A stretch of DNA of 64,000 nt from Candidatus Omnitrophota bacterium (lineage in GTDB: Bacteria; Omnitrophota; Gorgyraeia; Pluralincolimonadales; Pluralincolimonadaceae): the NCBI GenBank assembly GCA_041651455.1, contig JBAZJG010000009.1:16450-80449 (forward strand), written 5' to 3'. Within the stretch, counting starts at the first letter, position 1. Every line of letters starts with the position of its first letter. The notes beneath the pieces were generated by a model. The model was not told the DNA's origin. It made no database searches and saw only the letters and a program-made list of their open reading frames with translations. The translations under genes and the position numbers were made by a program. Below, in pieces: positions 58,370 through 62,984 of the stretch.

Positions 58370-58445
58370 GCTGGCGTAGCTCAGTTGGTAGAGCGGCTGT
58401 TTTGTAAACAGCGGGTCGGGGGTTCAATTCCCTTCGCCAGCTCCA
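58370..58445 (+). tRNA. tRNA-Thr (UGU)
   Basis: Hand fold: acceptor GCTGGCG/CGCCAGC, anticodon loop UUUGUAA, TTCAATT T-loop, CCA encoded. Confidence 0.8.
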
Positions 58446-58558
58446 TGATTCTCGCTTATAGATGTAATGAATCACTCCGAGTCCAGCCGAGACGGATTTC
58501 GCAGAAATCCGGCCGGCGTTTTGGACGAGGAGTCGGTAGTCTTGATAATTCGGATTTT

Positions 58559-58643
58559 GGGCAGATTCCCGAGCGGTCAAAGGGGTCAGACTGTAAATCT
58601 GATGGCCTAGCCTTCGGAGGTTCGAACCCTCCTCTGCCCACCA
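58559..58643 (+). tRNA. tRNA-Tyr (GUA), class II with a long variable arm
   Basis: 85 nt, near-colinear with E. coli tRNA-Tyr. Anticodon loop CUGUAAA, CCA encoded. Confidence 0.85.
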
Positions 58644-58766
58644 TTTTTATTCGAGTCGCGCACACAACTTATATAGTTTTGAAAGTAGAGCGAGGTTTTC
58701 TAAGGTAATCCTAAGGTCTTCGTAAGACACTGATATATTGTAAACTATTGGAGACCGAAATAGCGC

Positions 58767-58795
58767 TTGACAAAATTTGTGTGGAATGGTATATT
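58767..58795 (+). promoter_or_regulatory. Strong sigma70 promoter: TTGACA (58767-72), 17 nt, TGgTATATT (extended -10, 58787-95).
   Basis: Read directly from the sequence. Confidence 0.6.
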
Positions 58796-58801
58796 TCTCT
58801 T

Positions 58802-58870
58802 GCGTCTGGGATGAGTCGCCTCGCGTCTCATCTTGAGGCTTTTAGCCTTAAGCCCAGTCGCTTTTTTTTT
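58802..58870 (+). promoter_or_regulatory. About 69-nt structured leader or small-RNA candidate ending in an intrinsic terminator. GCGTCTGGG (58802-10) pairs with CCCAGTCGC (58853-61) and is followed by U9 (58862-70). Inner hairpins are GATGAG/CTCATC and GGCT/AGCC.
   Basis: Base-pairing was checked by hand: 8 of 9 pairs in the closing stem, then T9. It sits between the promoter and the DUF3800 RBS. Confidence 0.5.
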
Positions 58871-58902
58871 GCTAAACTCAACAAGAAGATTGAGGTGGTA
58901 AT

Positions 58903-59829: not shown

Positions 59830-59857
59830 CAATCAGACTTAGCTGCAAAATATCAGG

Positions 59858-59931
59858 GCGGGTGTAGTTCAATGGTAGAACGGCAGCCTTCCAAGCTGTT
59901 CACGGGAGTTCGATTCTCCTCACCCGCTCCA
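59858..59931 (+). tRNA. tRNA-Gly (UCC)
   Basis: Hand fold: acceptor GCGGGTG/CACCCGC, anticodon loop CUUCCAA, 4-nt variable loop, CCA encoded. GC-normal, unlike its flanks. Confidence 0.8.
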
Positions 59932-59973
59932 TAACATCCTGCTATAGGTTTTGGTGATGCGCTCTGAGTTCAA

Positions 59974-59998
59974 TCGAGCTCAATTTCCTACTGAAATT
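59974..59998 (+). other. Perfect 10-bp inverted repeat, GCTCAATTTC-ctact-GAAATTGAGC (hairpin; possible weak terminator or remnant)
   Basis: Read directly from the sequence. Only GTTTT follows it, 4 nt downstream. Confidence 0.3.
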
Positions 59999-60168
59999 GA
60001 GCCGATGTTTTGAAAGCAGAGCTTCTATTTATACGAAGTTAAGTAGAAAACCACCCCAAATTCCCTTTGAATTACCTAATTTAGGCCTTATAATGTTATA
60101 TGAAGTAAAAAATCTTAAATATAAATTCATATGTTACGCTAATAAATTGGTTCAAGGAAGGATAGATA

Positions 60169-60867
60169 ATGGAAGATATATCAATCATTAAGAAGACAGA
60201 GACTGCATTAGATGATTTAATAAATCTTTGGCGCAGACGTAAATTATTATGCATCATTGTCGTAGCAATAATCAGTACGCCGTTAATATATTCAGTTGTC
60301 ATAACATCACAAATGAAATCAAAACTTGAAAACGCAGAAAAAGCAAAAGAGAACGCTGAAAAGGCAAAAGATAAAGCTGAATTGCAGCTTGCTCCTTTTT
60401 TAGCAGCAGCAAATCAAGGGTTTCCAAATATTGACCCGGAAAAAAGGTTAGAATTGCTTCTATCTAAGCTCAACGATGCAGTCATAAATGTTCAGGATGC
60501 GGCTCGACGCATATCGTCAGAACGCAATATAAGTGCTGATTTGAAGTGTACTCTTATCGAGAATTTGAAGAAGATACAACCACTTGAGGTTAACGTTGTT
60601 AGTATTATCGGAGATGCAGAAACGTATTCACTTGCGGTGCAAATTAAAGATATATTTGAGGAAGCGGGATGGAAAGTCGAAGGCGTAGATCAGGCAACAT
60701 ATACTGTTCCACCAAAGCATCTTGTGCTTGTATTTGGAAAGAAAGCTACACCAGAGCTTGAAAGAGCCATCACTCCACTCGTTGATAGTTTTGGTTACCA
60801 GCGAAAAGCAGTGCTCGACGATATGATTGGAGAAAATGCTATGAGGATTATAGTCGGTTCAAAATAG
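60169..60867 (+). CDS. Membrane-anchored coiled-coil protein of unknown function (232 aa), AT-rich
   Basis: RBS ggaagga. TM helix LLCIIVVAIISTPLIYSVVI, followed by a KxxE-rich coiled coil (ENAEKAKENAEKAKDKAE). Sigma70-like TTGAAT ... TATAAT upstream at about 60060-60092. Confidence 0.45.
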   Translation: MEDISIIKKTETALDDLINLWRRRKLLCIIVVAIISTPLIYSVVITSQMKSKLENAEKAKENAEKAKDKAELQLAPFLAAANQGFPNIDPEKRLELLLSKLNDAVINVQDAARRISSERNISADLKCTLIENLKKIQPLEVNVVSIIGDAETYSLAVQIKDIFEEAGWKVEGVDQATYTVPPKHLVLVFGKKATPELERAITPLVDSFGYQRKAVLDDMIGENAMRIIVGSK

Positions 60868-60944
60868 TAATATAGAATCTAAGCAGGCTTTTAAGAAACA
60901 TATGGCAAAACAATGAAGGTTATATCTAGGTAAAAGGATTTCAG

Positions 60945-62984
60945 TTGAGAAATATAGTAATAAGCACTCTATTAATCGTTTTAACTTACACATCATACTC
61001 TTTCGCTGCCCCCTGGCCCAACTCCGTCTCCGACTCCGACCGCGCCTACCTTAAAGAATTAATGAAAGATACCTGGCACTACATAGATTTCTTCATCTCC
61101 CCGGAGACAGGTTTCCCGTATGATTCCAACCAGGCGAAGGATATCACGAACACGACCAACGTCGGCCTCTACCTGACCTCCGTCTGCATGGCCTACAAAC
61201 TCGGCTACGTAAGCGAGGAGCATGCCGTCGCCCGCATAACCAAGATATTAGACAGCCTGGACACCTACGGCAACTGGAACCGCCTCTATAATAACTGGCT
61301 CGACCCCGAAGGCAAGAACCGCGCGGCCAAGCCCGGCCCCAATAATATCTCGGATTACAACAAGCTTCCCGCGGGCCTGATAGTCGTCCGCCGGACGTTC
61401 CCGCAGCTCAGGAAGCGCTGCACGGATTTCCTCGATGAGATCCCGTGGGAGAAGTTCCACGATGCGGGCACGGGAAGGATATATTACGAGTTCGACGTCG
61501 CGGAGAAGAGCATGCGCAACCCCGTCTTTTTCTACCGCGGGGAGGATAAGATATTAGGCCATTTCCTGATGATCGCCTCCGGCAAGGTGCCCGCGTACAC
61601 GTGGGACAAGCACGACCTTTCGGACGAGGCCCGCTACGGTTACCAGTATTACAAGCACGGCTGGCAGGGCGGGGGGCTCTTCATGCAGTTCATCTGCGAC
61701 ATGTTCCTCGATAATGAAGGCACGCTTCTCGGCAAGTCATCAGTCAACTTCACGTGGGCCCAGATATTGCACGCGTCGAAGATAGGCGCGCCCGTATGGG
61801 GCTGGTCGGCCTGCGTCTCGCCGAACGGGCCGTATCTCGGAATGGGCGGCCTCGTTGACGAGGTGGTGACGCCCCACGCGAGCGTGCTGGCGGTCAGCTT
61901 GTTCCCGAGCGAGGTTGTCAGCAACCTCAAGCGGCTCGAGGACTACGGCTTGCGCACGCCTTTCATGGTCGACGGCAAACCGGAGAAGTTCGGCTTCCGC
62001 GACAGCGTGAACTGGAAGAACGGCCAGACATGCGATAAATACCTTGTGCTCGACCAGGCGATGCTCTTCCTGTCGCTGGTCAACTATTGCGAGAACGGCC
62101 TGCTCTGGAAGACGTTCGACAGCGATGAGATGGTCAAATACGGAAAGAGTGTAATAAGCGACTACAAGAAGGCCGACAGCCAGCGCGCTGCTCAGAGAGA
62201 TTATATAAGGAAGCTGTCTGCGGACGATATCGACACCTTCTGGATAGGCAGGGAGATATGGGCGCGTTCGCTGTCATCCAATGCGGCGCCTGATATTAAG
62301 GAAAGCTGGAAGGTCTCGGATGAGTCCGGCAGGGTCATTGTCCAGGGCAGCGAAAATACAGGCCTTTTGGCGCACGGGATCAATATGGTGAAAGAGGTAG
62401 AGGTCCCGGATAATAAGGAAGAATACGGCACTATGTGGACTTTCGAGGCATCTCTGGAAAGGCCCGGGGCAGCCGCGGTAACACGGGTTGTGAAGGTTCG
62501 CTTCCCGATGTCCCTGATGCTTGAGGGCAAGTGGAAGATAGCCGACGGCAATATGGCGGAATGGGCGTCACCGGATTTTGACGATTCCGCATGGAAAGAG
62601 GCCTACGTGCCTTTGCGTTGGGAAGAGGAGGCGCTGAAGGACTATGACGGTGTTGCATGGTACCGCCTGCATTTCGATATACCGGCCGAGATGTTGAAGC
62701 GTTGGGGGGATATGCCCCTTGCGGTGGGTATGGGCGCCGTTGATGACGCCGATGAGACGTTCCTTAACGGCCAGATGATAGGTAAGAGCGGGGAGTTCCC
62801 GCCGGTAAAGAAAACCGCCTATGACACTCCGAGGATCTACGCGTTTGATAAAGGGCTGCTGAAAGAGCATAACGTCCTGGCAGTACGCGTGAGCGACTGG
62901 GGCGGCAACGGCGGAATCTGGCGCGGGCCCGTGTTGATAGGCCCTGCGGATGAGGTCAGACAGCTGATAGGGGAGTCGCGTTAA
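60945..62984 (+). CDS. Secreted glycoside-hydrolase-like protein with a C-terminal galactose-binding-like (GH2 sugar-binding-type) jelly-roll domain
   Basis: TTG start after aagga. Signal peptide MRNIVISTLLIVLTYTSYSFA encoded by AT-rich DNA; the mature part is GC-rich. C-terminal W..Y..F....DE.F.NG..IG......N.L.V.V.DWGG.GGI.R.V.L pattern. Confidence 0.35.
   Translation: MRNIVISTLLIVLTYTSYSFAAPWPNSVSDSDRAYLKELMKDTWHYIDFFISPETGFPYDSNQAKDITNTTNVGLYLTSVCMAYKLGYVSEEHAVARITKILDSLDTYGNWNRLYNNWLDPEGKNRAAKPGPNNISDYNKLPAGLIVVRRTFPQLRKRCTDFLDEIPWEKFHDAGTGRIYYEFDVAEKSMRNPVFFYRGEDKILGHFLMIASGKVPAYTWDKHDLSDEARYGYQYYKHGWQGGGLFMQFICDMFLDNEGTLLGKSSVNFTWAQILHASKIGAPVWGWSACVSPNGPYLGMGGLVDEVVTPHASVLAVSLFPSEVVSNLKRLEDYGLRTPFMVDGKPEKFGFRDSVNWKNGQTCDKYLVLDQAMLFLSLVNYCENGLLWKTFDSDEMVKYGKSVISDYKKADSQRAAQRDYIRKLSADDIDTFWIGREIWARSLSSNAAPDIKESWKVSDESGRVIVQGSENTGLLAHGINMVKEVEVPDNKEEYGTMWTFEASLERPGAAAVTRVVKVRFPMSLMLEGKWKIADGNMAEWASPDFDDSAWKEAYVPLRWEEEALKDYDGVAWYRLHFDIPAEMLKRWGDMPLAVGMGAVDDADETFLNGQMIGKSGEFPPVKKTAYDTPRIYAFDKGLLKEHNVLAVRVSDWGGNGGIWRGPVLIGPADEVRQLIGESR

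What the first reader, a model, noticed from the sequence alone, without database searches (positions are those of the whole stretch)
58370..61006. AT-rich horizontally acquired inserts splitting a tRNA-Thr / Tyr / Gly cluster
Thr(UGU)-Tyr(GUA)-Gly(UCC) is the conserved order of the thrU-tyrU-glyT tRNA operon. Here 1.2 kb of AT-rich DNA carrying a DUF3800-like gene starts exactly at the CCA end of tRNA-Tyr. A second AT-rich segment, encoding a membrane coiled-coil protein, follows tRNA-Gly and runs into the 5' end of the next gene. The tRNA-Gly itself keeps host-like GC. No integrase, transposase or obvious direct repeats are present. These look like old or degraded integration events, or a non-canonical insertion mechanism. 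DUF3800 proteins recur in defence / abortive-infection islands. The pairing with a small membrane protein is suggestive of a two-gene defence module but unproven.
Basis: partly seen in the sequence, partly recalled or inferred. Interest (0 to 1): 0.75.

Follow-up and report, generated by a model that had tools for sequence, protein, structure and literature searches.

The report
RNA-plus-nuclease cassette inside tRNA operon
Two recently acquired AT-rich gene cassettes sit in a tRNA operon of an uncultured Omnitrophota bacterium, and the first is a self-contained unit found across phyla: a 60-nt structured RNA absent from Rfam, joined to an RNase H-like DUF3800 nuclease.

Summary
tRNA-Thr, tRNA-Tyr and tRNA-Gly lie where stated. 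Both ORFs have GC3 of 0.30, against a window mean of 0.675.

The two closest genomes have an 18-24 nt Tyr-Gly spacer. The 1.2-kb DUF3800 segment (58656-59855) is therefore a lineage-specific insertion.

The second segment is a variable cargo slot. It sits behind the operon terminator and a σ70 promoter that relatives also carry. Relatives hold different genes there, including an Mrr-type restriction enzyme. Its AT-rich overlap with the next gene is only that gene's own diverged signal-peptide coding.

The proposed DUF3800 + membrane-protein pair is not supported. Host tRNA-Gly, a terminator and a promoter separate the two genes, and their homologues were not found together.

The real partner of DUF3800 is an RNA at 58799-58871. 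It is a three-way junction followed by a U-tract, downstream of a near-consensus promoter. It occurs upstream of 73 of 73 homologues across phyla and in viral contigs. It matches no Rfam family, although a phage positive control is detected as DUF3800-VI.

The protein folds like RNase HII/HIII and keeps the D-E...D...QxxD residues. I infer an RNA-controlled nuclease module, toxin-antitoxin-like or self-regulating, sitting in an integrase-free transfer hotspot. It is a new member of a known kind.

The parts
58370..58445 (+). tRNA-Thr(UGU), host gene, 4 nt after the stop of the NAD(P)H-hydrate dehydratase gene
   Evidence: ARAGORN; Rfam tRNA 69.8 bits; syntenic in L001/L002
58559..58643 (+). tRNA-Tyr(GUA), host gene
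   Evidence: same sequence as L002 in alignment A2
58656..59855 (.). Insert 1: a 1200-nt AT-rich segment absent from L001 and L002. It replaces about 12 nt (CCTTCCGTGTTTC) of the ancestral 18-24 nt Tyr-Gly spacer
   Evidence: blastn breakpoints; alignment A2; composition
58676..58691 (+). 16-nt copy (15/16) of the 3' half of the glyT operon terminator stem (60007-60022). Unexplained; possibly a trace of the recombination event
   Evidence: the repeat finder D4; local alignment score 27 against shuffle mean 16.3, sd 2.2, 0/300 shuffles as high
58767..58795 (+). Sigma-70 promoter of the cassette, TTGACA-17 nt-TATATT (11/12 matches, TG extended -10)
   Evidence: a TTGACA box at the same relative position in nearly all homologous loci
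58799..58871 (+). DUF3800-associated structured RNA. It is a three-way junction: P1 GCGUCUGGG/CCCAGUCGC, P2 AUGAGUCGC-loop-GCGUCUCAU, and hairpin P3. Each of P1 and P2 carries a conserved U.U mismatch. A U9 tract follows, giving an intrinsic terminator
   Evidence: MFE -32.8 kcal/mol, z -5.6; present in 73/73 homologous loci; covariation test; RNAalifold gives the same fold; CM R1 91 bits, E 5e-23, the only copy in the window; no Rfam family
58903..59829 (+). DUF3800 protein, 308 aa, TTG start after RBS GAGGTG. RNase HII/HIII-like fold. Invariant D7-E8 (YxDESGT), D202 (HDN), Q247/D250 (QxxD) and a C-terminal CxCxxCxxH
59858..59931 (+). tRNA-Gly(UCC), host gene, same sequence in L001 and L002 in alignment A2. 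It now lies downstream of the cassette
59961..60033 (+). Terminator of the tRNA operon (nested hairpin plus T-rich tail), conserved in L001 and L002
   Evidence: alignment A2; terminator scan; blastn 91.8% identity to L002 over 59856-60038
60067..60094 (+). Sigma-70 promoter TTGAAT-16 nt-TATAAT, closely conserved in L001 and recognisable but diverged in L002. It sits in front of the variable cargo
   Evidence: alignment A2
60100..60925 (.). Insert 2: variable cargo slot. The window holds one gene, L001 holds 169-aa and 199-aa ORFs, and L002 holds 173-aa and 116-aa ORFs plus a 581-aa Mrr-type restriction enzyme. All are AT-rich and mutually unrelated
60169..60867 (+). 232-aa single-pass membrane protein with a long coiled coil and a small C-terminal alpha/beta domain. 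Function unknown. It belongs to a small family of 25 sequence clusters whose members sit in defence or mobile islands
60945..62984 (+). Host glycoamylase-like secreted protein. Its RBS, TTG start and AT-rich signal-peptide codons (60945-61006) are homologous in L001 and L002, so they are not part of the insert
   Evidence: Pfam; tblastn 84%/82% identity; alignment A1

Best explanation
The region is a small horizontal-transfer hotspot with no integrase, inside the thrU-tyrU-glyT-type tRNA operon of an Omnitrophota bacterium. It holds two independent, recent, AT-rich acquisitions.

(1) A self-contained 1.2-kb cassette was dropped into the 18-24 nt Tyr-Gly spacer. It consists of a near-consensus sigma-70 promoter, a 60-nt three-way-junction RNA ending in a U-tract terminator, and then an RBS and a DUF3800 gene 32 nt further on. 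The same promoter-RNA-terminator-gene unit recurs with no conserved protein partner in many unrelated genomic contexts, phyla and viral contigs. This much is shown.

Inferred mechanism for the cassette: most transcripts stop at the terminator and yield the small RNA, and read-through yields the nuclease mRNA. Stacked end to end, P1 and P2 form an 18-bp pseudo-palindromic helix with two symmetric U.U mismatches. That looks like a binding site for a dimer of the RNase HII-like DUF3800 nuclease. The RNA would either hold the nuclease inactive until infection or stress lowers RNA supply (architecture like a type III toxin-antitoxin or abortive-infection system), or it would feed back on nuclease synthesis.

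(2) Downstream of the operon terminator, a promoter shared with relatives fronts a cargo slot whose content differs among the three closest genomes. Here it is a 232-aa membrane/coiled-coil protein of unknown function.

Inferred mechanism for turnover: homologous or microhomology-mediated recombination anchored in the highly conserved tRNA and core-gene flanks, not site-specific integration.
For: HGT and hotspot:
- The insert is absent from L001 and L002, with sharp breakpoints.
- GC3 is 0.30 against 0.675 +/- 0.107.
- Slot-2 cargo differs in all three genomes, while the terminator, the promoter and the next gene's RBS and start are shared.
- The Tyr-Gly spacer exceeds 300 nt in 9 of 37 related loci. 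Contents include MNT-HEPN, and elsewhere in the cluster AAA_21+DUF4276, zeta toxin and PD-(D/E)XK.
- No integrase, transposase or flanking repeats are present.

RNA-nuclease unit:
- The motif is present in 73/73 loci, with 68 unique sequences.
- 88.9% of cells are paired against about 40% when partners are slid. Eleven pairs carry double changes, and 0/500 shuffles reach the observed value on four of the five measures (4/500 on the fifth).
- RNAalifold returns the same three-way junction.
- All 68 unique motifs have at least 6 U in the 9 nt after P1.
- The CM finds one copy in the window and none in 1.18 Mb of Omnitrophota loci.
- Ten viral contigs carry the motif.
- No protein neighbour recurs over 27 loci.
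- D7, E8, D202, Q247 and D250 are invariant.
- DUF3800 genes are known to associate with 11 other structured RNAs, several followed by terminators (PMC5737381).
- Phage Marin shows the same promoter / 3WJ RNA (Rfam DUF3800-VI) / terminator / DUF3800 layout.
Against: - No experiment shows that the RNA accumulates, binds DUF3800, or that DUF3800 is toxic or protective.
- The helices P1 and P2 are almost invariant, so their pairing rests on few covariations (3 events in P1). The pseudo-palindrome and dimer idea is read from sequence only.
- The RNA is always upstream on the same strand, which fits a purely cis-acting leader equally well. Rfam types DUF3800-VI as cis-regulatory.
- Two viral copies (L167, L169) lack the U-tract.
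- There is no PADLOC hit for DUF3800.
- Neighbours of the cassette are a mix of housekeeping and defence genes, so a defence role is not established.
- The recombination mechanism is inferred. No donor or polymorphic population was found, and only 8 of 81 cassettes lie within 1.5 kb of a tRNA.
Confidence: 0.65

Rival explanations
1. The RNA is only a cis-acting 5' leader (a transcription attenuator or protein-binding autoregulatory element) that tunes DUF3800 expression. It has no separate life as a small RNA and no antitoxin-like role. DUF3800 then acts alone on some nucleic-acid substrate.
For: The position and strand are fixed in 73/73 loci, 9-51 nt before the start codon. The terminator lies directly between promoter and gene. 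Rfam classes the analogous DUF3800-VI as Cis-reg. L167 and L169 lack the U-tract, and the ORF starts 6-8 nt after the RNA.
Against: The helix sequences are far more conserved than structure alone requires, which is typical of a specific protein partner. Other DUF3800-associated RNAs occur on either side and either strand of the gene, so they act in trans (PMC5737381). Intact RNAs persist next to truncated DUF3800 ORFs (L168, L170, L174) and alone (L175).
Confidence: 0.3
2. The segments are decayed remnants of tRNA-targeting integrative elements (genomic islands or prophage ends) whose integrases have been lost.
For: The location is at tRNA genes. The DNA is AT-rich and foreign. A 16-nt duplicate of the glyT terminator half lies inside insert 1. 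One homologue of the 232-aa protein lies about 5 kb from a tyrosine integrase.
Against: There is no integrase or fragment, and no duplicated tRNA 3' end or att-like repeats. Insert 1 lies in a spacer, not in a tRNA 3' end. It consists of one intact functional unit plus about 110 nt. The same unit is found at non-tRNA sites in 73 of 81 loci. Slot 2 begins after a conserved terminator and promoter, not at the tRNA.
Confidence: 0.12
3. One reading: DUF3800 and the 232-aa membrane protein form a two-gene defence or abortive-infection module.
For: The two genes are close together, similar in composition (both GC3 0.30) and on the same strand.
Against: Host tRNA-Gly, the operon terminator and a promoter shared with relatives lie between them. 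No neighbour family recurs next to DUF3800 across 27 loci. No DUF3800 lies next to the 232-aa homologues in the three contexts read. Family sizes are 3075 against 25. There is no significant PADLOC hit.
Confidence: 0.03
4. DUF3800 is itself the mobility enzyme: an RNase H-fold recombinase or homing nuclease, possibly directed by its RNA. On this view the cassette is a minimal selfish element.
Against: The closest folds are RNase HII/HIII, not transposases. There are no terminal inverted or direct repeats and no conserved 3' end, and the RNA boxes are not enriched in the flanks. The RNA has no variable, guide-like single-stranded segment, because its variable part P3 covaries as a plain stem. 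The window holds a single copy.
Confidence: 0.05

Closest known systems
DUF3800-associated RNA motifs (DUF3800-I to -XI; Weinberg et al. 2017, PMC5737381), especially Rfam RF02915 DUF3800-VI
   Same: A small, highly conserved structured RNA is encoded next to a DUF3800 gene and is often followed by an intrinsic terminator. DUF3800-VI is also a three-way junction (P1 enclosing two hairpins). In phage Marin it sits between a sigma-70 promoter and a terminator, RBS and DUF3800 gene, which is the same layout as here.
   Different: No Rfam DUF3800 model matches the window RNA even at E<=10 on 151 nt, and my model R1 does not match the phage RNA. The sequence boxes differ: GCGUCU/AGUCGC with U.U mismatches here, G.U-rich GGUUGG/CCGGCU helices in VI. 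The associated proteins are only 27% identical. I could not inspect the motifs of the 2017 supplement that may not be in Rfam.
Type III toxin-antitoxin / abortive-infection systems (ToxIN, CptIN, TenpIN)
   Same: The gene order is promoter, non-coding RNA, Rho-independent terminator, nuclease gene. The terminator sets a high RNA-to-protein ratio. The modules are compact, mobile and carried by phages and islands. (This is established knowledge of ToxIN; the window layout comes.)
   Different: The RNA here is a single 60-nt three-way junction, not tandem 34-36-nt repeats (one CM hit). The protein has an RNase HII-like fold, not a ToxN/AbiQ fold. Toxicity and RNA neutralisation are untested.
Type 2 RNase H (RNase HII/H2A/HIII)
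   Different: Sequence identity is only 11-13%. The protein has large helical insertions and a C-terminal CxCxxCxxH element. It has a dedicated RNA partner and is an accessory, mobile gene rather than a housekeeping one. Its substrate is unknown.
MGE-free HGT hotspots / core defence hotspots flanked by core genes (Oliveira et al. 2017, PMC5635113; Johnson et al. 2023, PMC10250203)
   Same: The flanks are conserved and the cargo is strain-specific and interchangeable, including defence genes. No integrase or transposase is present. A tRNA neighbourhood is common.
   Different: It is very small (1.2 kb plus 0.8 kb). It lies inside a tRNA operon, in the spacer between two tRNAs, rather than beside it. 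One slot sits behind a promoter shared among relatives. It comes from an uncultured phylum known only from MAGs.

Membership tests
DUF3800 protein family (PF12686) | Pfam HMM score above the gathering threshold | tested here: met
   64.6 bits against a cut-off of 21, E 2.2e-17, full-length model match
DUF3800 protein family (PF12686) | N-terminal DE motif and C-terminal QxxD motif on an RNase H2-like fold (as described in PMC7736814) | tested here: met
DUF3800-associated RNA motifs (Weinberg 2017 series) | Conserved structured RNA consistently adjacent to DUF3800 genes | tested here: met
   73/73 loci; covariation and slide controls; RNAalifold
DUF3800-associated RNA motifs (Weinberg 2017 series) | Match to one of the deposited covariance models (Rfam DUF3800-I, -VI, -IX, ...) | tested here: not met
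   No hit at E<=1 on 4 kb or E<=10 on 151 nt. The positive control, phage Marin, gives DUF3800-VI at 45.2 bits
Type III toxin-antitoxin | Promoter, antitoxin RNA, intrinsic terminator and toxin gene in one short operon | tested here: met
   Promoter 58767-58795, RNA 58799-58861, U9 tract, ORF at 58903. A U-tract follows 68/68 unique motifs
Type III toxin-antitoxin | Antitoxin made of tandem direct repeats processed by the toxin | tested here: not met
   Single RNA copy; the only other CM hit in the window is the reverse strand of the same site at 18.7 bits. No tandem repeats in 58640-58900
Type III toxin-antitoxin | Toxin is a ToxN/AbiQ-type endoribonuclease neutralised by its RNA | tested here: not met
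   Fold part tested and not met: the fold is RNase HII-like, not ToxN/AbiQ-like. Toxicity and RNA neutralisation need experiments and could not be tested here
tRNA-targeting integrative genomic island | Tyrosine or serine integrase (or a remnant) within the island | tested here: not met
   ORF list and Pfam scans of 58300-61100 show none
tRNA-targeting integrative genomic island | Direct repeats (attL/attR) duplicating the tRNA 3' end | tested here: not met
   No such repeat. The only notable repeat is a 16-mer of the terminator, not of a tRNA
MGE-free HGT hotspot between conserved flanks | Same flanking core genes in relatives with different or absent cargo | tested here: met
   L001 and L002 are syntenic on both sides, lack insert 1 and carry different cargo in slot 2
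MGE-free HGT hotspot between conserved flanks | Turnover by homologous recombination in the flanks | not testable with these tools
   Needs population genomes of the same species to map recombination tracts. None were found: the cluster of the window's DUF3800 protein (two member sequences) is recorded on one 82,950-nt contig
Known anti-phage defence systems (PADLOC-DB 2.0) | Significant match to a defence-system protein model | tested here: not met
   DUF3800: no hit. 232-aa protein: only E about 0.01 to candidate models PDC-M67B and PDC-S57

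The most novel reading that the evidence does not exclude
The 60-nt RNA is a previously undescribed (twelfth) class of DUF3800-partner RNA. With its RNase HII-like protein it forms a new type of RNA-protein toxin-antitoxin or immune module. A nuclease dimer would be clamped on a pseudo-palindromic RNA helix with two U.U mismatches and released or activated on infection. 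The module is widespread: about 3000 sequence clusters across many phyla and phages. If true, this would give the long-unexplained DUF3800-RNA association, and the DUF3800 accessory proteins of Cas12a2/a3, Cas13 and type VII retrons, a testable mechanism.
Probability: 0.25. Interest if true: 0.8.

Novelty: new member of a known kind. Interest (0 to 1): 0.5.

Why it matters
The insertion itself is ordinary: foreign cassettes in a hotspot next to tRNAs.

The value lies in what the cassette shows. DUF3800 proteins turn up beside CRISPR Cas12a2/a3, Cas13 kinase systems and type VII retrons, and beside eleven unrelated structured RNAs. Their function is still unknown.

Here a large, very conserved DUF3800 clade shows an unusually clean design. 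Every member read has the same promoter-RNA-terminator-gene unit and no protein partner. The RNA's two helices repeat the same sequence in a two-fold arrangement.

That gives a compact two-part system of about 1.1 kb that can be synthesised and tested directly. The tests are RNA binding, nuclease activity, toxicity and phage defence.

The locus also documents that the spacers of the thrU-tyrU-glyT operon are recurrent landing sites for small toxin-antitoxin and defence cassettes in the uncultured phylum Omnitrophota. In this genome an apparently essential tRNA-Gly now lies downstream of a foreign terminator.

Tried and rejected
(1) The GAGTCGC box at the left junction (58653) as a recognition site for the element. 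Rejected: the RNA boxes are not enriched in the flanks of the other cassettes examined (observed 1-3 per pattern against about 2.6 expected).

(2) A conserved 3' end or terminal repeats of the cassette. None was found downstream of the stop codon or upstream of the -35 box.

(3) A leader peptide in the RNA region. The ATG within GGGAUGAG is present in only 48 of 68 unique motifs, and P3 covaries as a stem.

(4) Preference of the DUF3800 cassette for tRNAs. Only 8 of 81 loci have a tRNA within 1.5 kb.

(5) Homology among the slot-2 cargo proteins of the window, L001 and L002. None was found.

(7) PDB relatives of DUF3800 by sequence. None below E 0.09.

(8) The supplement of Weinberg 2017, to compare motif consensuses. 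It is not held.

(9) The afdb50 fold library was unavailable. An Rfam scan of 20 loci exceeded the size limit.

(10) An alternative RNA conformer that pairs box 1 with box 2 and box 3 with box 4. It cannot be excluded, because the boxes are invariant. The covarying pairs 11-58 and 12-57, the MFE and RNAalifold all favour the three-way junction.

Full report
**1. Observation**

ARAGORN finds tRNA-Thr(tgt) at 58370-58445, tRNA-Tyr(gta) at 58559-58643 and tRNA-Gly(tcc) at 59858-59931. Rfam confirms all three.

A 300-nt sliding window shows GC of about 0.55-0.62 up to 58400. It falls to 0.37-0.40 across 58700-59800, rises slightly at the tRNA-Gly, falls to 0.31-0.41 across 59950-61000, and returns to about 0.58 from 61100.

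Among 48 non-overlapping long ORFs of the window, mean GC3 is 0.675 (sd 0.107). The two ORFs in question both have GC3 of 0.30. They are the two lowest values, and the next lowest is 0.50.

ORF 58903-59829 is a bona fide DUF3800. ORF 60169-60867 has no Pfam domain. Neither has a meaningful PADLOC hit. No integrase, transposase or flanking direct repeat is present. The observation therefore stands.

**2. Are the segments foreign? Comparison with relatives**

I used the upstream NAD(P)H-hydrate dehydratase protein to fetch 80 syntenic loci. They show that the window comes from a Candidatus Omnitrophota bacterium.

The two closest loci are L001 (87% protein identity) and L002 (84%). Their Tyr-Gly spacers are 24 and 18 nt.

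blastn aligns the window to them in three blocks:
- up to 58646-58652;
- again from 59856 (tRNA-Gly plus 110-240 nt downstream, 92% identical to L002);
- again from 61001-61009.

The alignments place the left junction of insert 1 twelve nt after the CCA of tRNA-Tyr, at 58656. The right junction lies 2 nt before tRNA-Gly. About 12 nt of the ancestral spacer (CCTTCCGTGTTTC) are replaced.

tblastn finds neither the DUF3800 protein nor the 232-aa protein in any of the 80 loci. Both genes are intact and retain every invariant residue of their families. The events therefore look recent, not old or degraded.

**3. The second segment is a cargo slot, not an insertion into the next gene**

Three features downstream of tRNA-Gly are shared with the relatives:
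- a nested hairpin with a T-rich tail (59961-60033), which is the operon terminator;
- a sigma-70 promoter, TTGAAT-16-TATAAT (60067-60094), closely conserved in L001 and recognisable but diverged in L002.

Past the promoter the three genomes diverge completely:
- the window has the 232-aa ORF;
- L001 has ORFs of 169 and 199 aa;
- L002 has ORFs of 173, 116 and 581 aa.

All are AT-rich (GC 0.26-0.47) and mutually unrelated. The 581-aa protein of L002 is an Mrr-type type IV restriction enzyme (Pfam Mrr_cat 2.7e-31; PADLOC mREase_IV 5.7e-60).

Homology resumes at the RBS (AAAGGA) and TTG start codon of the glycoamylase-like gene. Its signal-peptide codons are AT-rich and fast-evolving in all three genomes, and the protein aligns with L002 from residue 3. 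The 'run into the 5' end of the next gene' is therefore the host gene's own leader sequence.

**4. The tRNA operon is a recurrent landing site in this phylum**

In 37 related loci that have both tRNAs, the Tyr-Gly spacer has a median of about 32 nt. It exceeds 300 nt in 9 of them and reaches 2.6 kb.

The expanded spacers and neighbouring gaps contain:
- an MNT-HEPN toxin-antitoxin pair (L036);
- an AAA_21 + DUF4276/OLD-TOPRIM pair and a zeta toxin (L014);
- a PD-(D/E)XK nuclease (L002);
- ordinary genes such as GreA (by eye from the translation, L010), a response regulator, DUF4349, GpsA, PilZ and Yip1.

This matches the published picture of hotspots that lack mobile-element genes and diversify by double homologous recombination in flanking core genes (PMC5635113). 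That mechanism is inferred here, not shown.

One oddity remains. A 16-mer inside insert 1 (58676-58691) matches 15/16 the 3' half of this genome's own glyT terminator (60007-60022). None of 300 shuffles scored as high. It may be a scar of the recombination event.

**5. What the DUF3800 cassette really is**

The DUF3800 protein has 3075 homologous sequence clusters. The 119 other clusters listed are 60-71% identical by BLASTP (up to 73% in the MAFFT alignment) over the full length. Those that carry names are annotated as Omnitrophota, Anaerolineae, Thermoguttaceae or Coprothermobacterota.

Literature led me to look upstream of the gene. DUF3800 genes are known to associate with 11 different structured RNAs of unknown function, several of them followed by terminators (PMC5737381).

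In the window, a near-consensus promoter lies at 58767-58795 (TTGACA-17-TATATT, 11/12 matches). It is followed by a segment that folds into a perfect three-way junction (-32.8 kcal/mol; shuffles -17.2 +/- 2.8; z -5.6) and ends in U9. The RBS and TTG start lie 32 nt further on.

I fetched 80 metagenomic loci of this protein clade and added L081, giving 81 loci. Every locus with at least 150 nt of upstream sequence has the same element: 73 of 73 sequences (the window included), 68 of them unique. It ends 9-51 nt before the start codon. All 68 unique motifs have at least 6 U in the next 9 nt. A TTGACA box precedes it at the same relative position in nearly all loci.

The consensus is GCGUCUGGGAUGAGUCGC-yAA-GCGUCUCrU-(n)-GGGGCU-UUU-AGCCCn-AA-CCCCAGUCGC-U(n).

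Support for the structure:
- On a 67-sequence alignment, 88.9% of cells are paired, against 36-45% when partners are slid by 1-3 columns.
- Eleven pairs carry double changes, against 6.3 +/- 1.1 in shuffles, with 0 of 500 shuffles as high.
- Hairpin P3 covaries heavily. P1 has three compensatory events. The cores of P1 and P2 are invariant.
- RNAalifold independently returns the same three helices.

A covariance model (R1) scores the window copy at 91 bits (E 5e-23). The only other hit in the 64-kb window is the reverse strand of the same site at 18.7 bits, and there is none at E<=0.01 in 1.18 Mb of Omnitrophota loci. The model does find 10 copies in IMG/VR viral contigs. Four precede full DUF3800 genes of 51-57% identity, some precede truncated ORFs, and one stands alone. 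PHROG 38260 is the same protein clade.

No Rfam 15 family matches the RNA, at E<=1 over 4 kb or at E<=10 over 151 nt. The library is adequate as a control. In Pseudomonas phage Marin, a 27%-identical DUF3800 next to CI/Cro is preceded by Rfam DUF3800-VI (45.2 bits against a gathering score of 35). That RNA is also a three-way junction and has the same promoter-RNA-terminator-RBS-gene layout. R1 does not match that phage RNA.

I conclude that this is a distinct member of the DUF3800-RNA series. I could not check the 2017 supplement for motifs that were not deposited in Rfam.

**6. Anatomy that bears on mechanism**

Read directly from the sequence, P1 and P2 stacked end to end give an 18-bp helix. 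Both strands read 5'-GCGUCU...AGUCGC-3': the top strand is GCGUCUGGGAUGAGUCGC and the bottom strand is GCGUCUCAU^CCCAGUCGC. The helix has a U.U mismatch in each half, and P3 branches from the centre. This is a two-fold pseudo-symmetric site, the usual signature of a dimeric binding protein.

D7-E8 (YxDESGT), D202 (HDN) and Q247/D250 (QxxD) are invariant, and a C-terminal CxCxxCxxH is invariant or nearly so. That these residues form the active site is inferred from the motif comparison, not from a residue-level superposition.

The cassette has no conserved protein neighbour. Across 27 loci, the only shared neighbours belong to the same lineage. Neighbours are a mixture of housekeeping genes and defence genes, the latter including type I and III R-M, AbiU, AIPR and HKD+Snf2. 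The gene has lower GC than its flanks in nearly all loci, and only 8 of 81 loci have a tRNA within 1.5 kb. No conserved element follows the stop codon or precedes the -35 box.

**7. Most likely mechanism**

Shown: the mobile unit is promoter + RNA + terminator + nuclease gene.

Inferred: the strong promoter and terminator make the 60-70-nt RNA the main product, and read-through supplies the nuclease. The RNA binds a nuclease dimer through its two half-sites. This could go two ways:
- the RNA keeps the enzyme inactive until RNA supply falls or the complex is disturbed, an architecture like type III toxin-antitoxin or abortive-infection systems (about 0.35);
- the RNA acts only as an autoregulatory leader (about 0.3).

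A self-mobilising role for DUF3800 seems unlikely (about 0.05). The fold is closest to RNase H enzymes, there are no terminal repeats, and the RNA has no guide-like variable loop.

One consequence for the host: tRNA-Gly(UCC) is co-transcribed 18-24 nt after tRNA-Tyr in relatives, but here it lies behind a foreign terminator and a 927-nt ORF with no promoter of its own detected.

**8. The 232-aa protein**

Homologues lie beside a McrB-like AAA protein and an IS110 transposase (L163), beside a helicase-PLD nuclease, and beside a Shedu SduA_C protein about 5 kb from an integrase. No DUF3800 is present in any of those three contexts. It is island cargo of unknown function, and a defence role is only suggested by the company it keeps.

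**9. Verdict**

The HGT reading is supported, and the two-gene module is not.

The insertion and hotspot are of a known kind. The DUF3800 unit is a new member of the known DUF3800-plus-RNA series, with an unusually clear architecture that makes the long-standing question of DUF3800 function directly testable.

Interest is moderate at 0.5: low for the insertion itself, and higher for the RNA-nuclease module.

Noticed in passing
window 60067-60094; L001 about 2130-2160; L002 about 11760-11790: A sigma-70 promoter (TTGAAT-16-TATAAT) directly after the tRNA operon terminator is shared by the three genomes, closely in L001 and in diverged form in L002. The genes behind it are all different, as if cargo is swapped behind a fixed expression signal.
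   Followed up: partly
window 58676-58691 and 60007-60022: A 16-nt repeat (15/16): a copy of the 3' half of this genome's glyT terminator stem lies inside the left end of the DUF3800 insert. 0/300 shuffles score as high. Origin unexplained.
   Followed up: partly
L002 10847-11260 and 12930-14675: The closest relative with a long contig has a PD-(D/E)XK endonuclease gene wedged between the dehydratase gene and tRNA-Thr. It also has an Mrr-type type IV restriction enzyme in the slot after tRNA-Gly.
   Followed up: yes
L036 11084-11979; L014 6702-8496 and 10063-10650: Other Omnitrophota carry an MNT-HEPN toxin-antitoxin pair between tRNA-Tyr and tRNA-Gly. They also carry an AAA_21 + DUF4276 (OLD-TOPRIM-like) pair and a zeta toxin in the same tRNA cluster.
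   Followed up: yes
L002 11625-18887; L006 5678-6317: In L002, tRNA-Thr(ggt), the expected fourth member of the operon, lies 7 kb after tRNA-Gly. The glycoamylase and thioredoxin genes lie in between. In L006 it is 490 nt away. The host-GC glycoamylase block may itself be an older insertion into the tRNA operon.
   Followed up: no
L183 (Pseudomonas phage Marin OR683406) 2360-2510: A distant DUF3800 gene next to the CI/Cro immunity region is preceded by promoter TTGACG-17-TATACT, the Rfam DUF3800-VI three-way-junction RNA, and a separate terminator hairpin. This is the same layout as the window cassette.
   Followed up: yes
L168 8931-9003, L170 4121-4193, L174 2044-2115, L175 6678-6750: These viral contigs have an intact RNA motif followed by truncated DUF3800 ORFs (43-56 aa) or by no ORF. 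L167 and L169 have the RNA but no U-tract.
   Followed up: partly
window 59791-59820 (protein residues 297-305): This DUF3800 clade ends in a CxCxxCxxH motif whose residues are invariant or nearly so. It is a possible zinc knuckle and is not part of the RNase H-like core.
   Followed up: no
window 60328-60369: A 21-nt tandem duplication inside the 232-aa ORF encodes the repeated heptad ENAEKAK of its coiled coil.
   Followed up: no
window 1-18000: The first about 18 kb of the window has lower GC (0.44-0.53; GC3 0.50-0.66) than the rest (0.55-0.60; GC3 about 0.7-0.8). This may be another compositionally distinct block.
   Followed up: no
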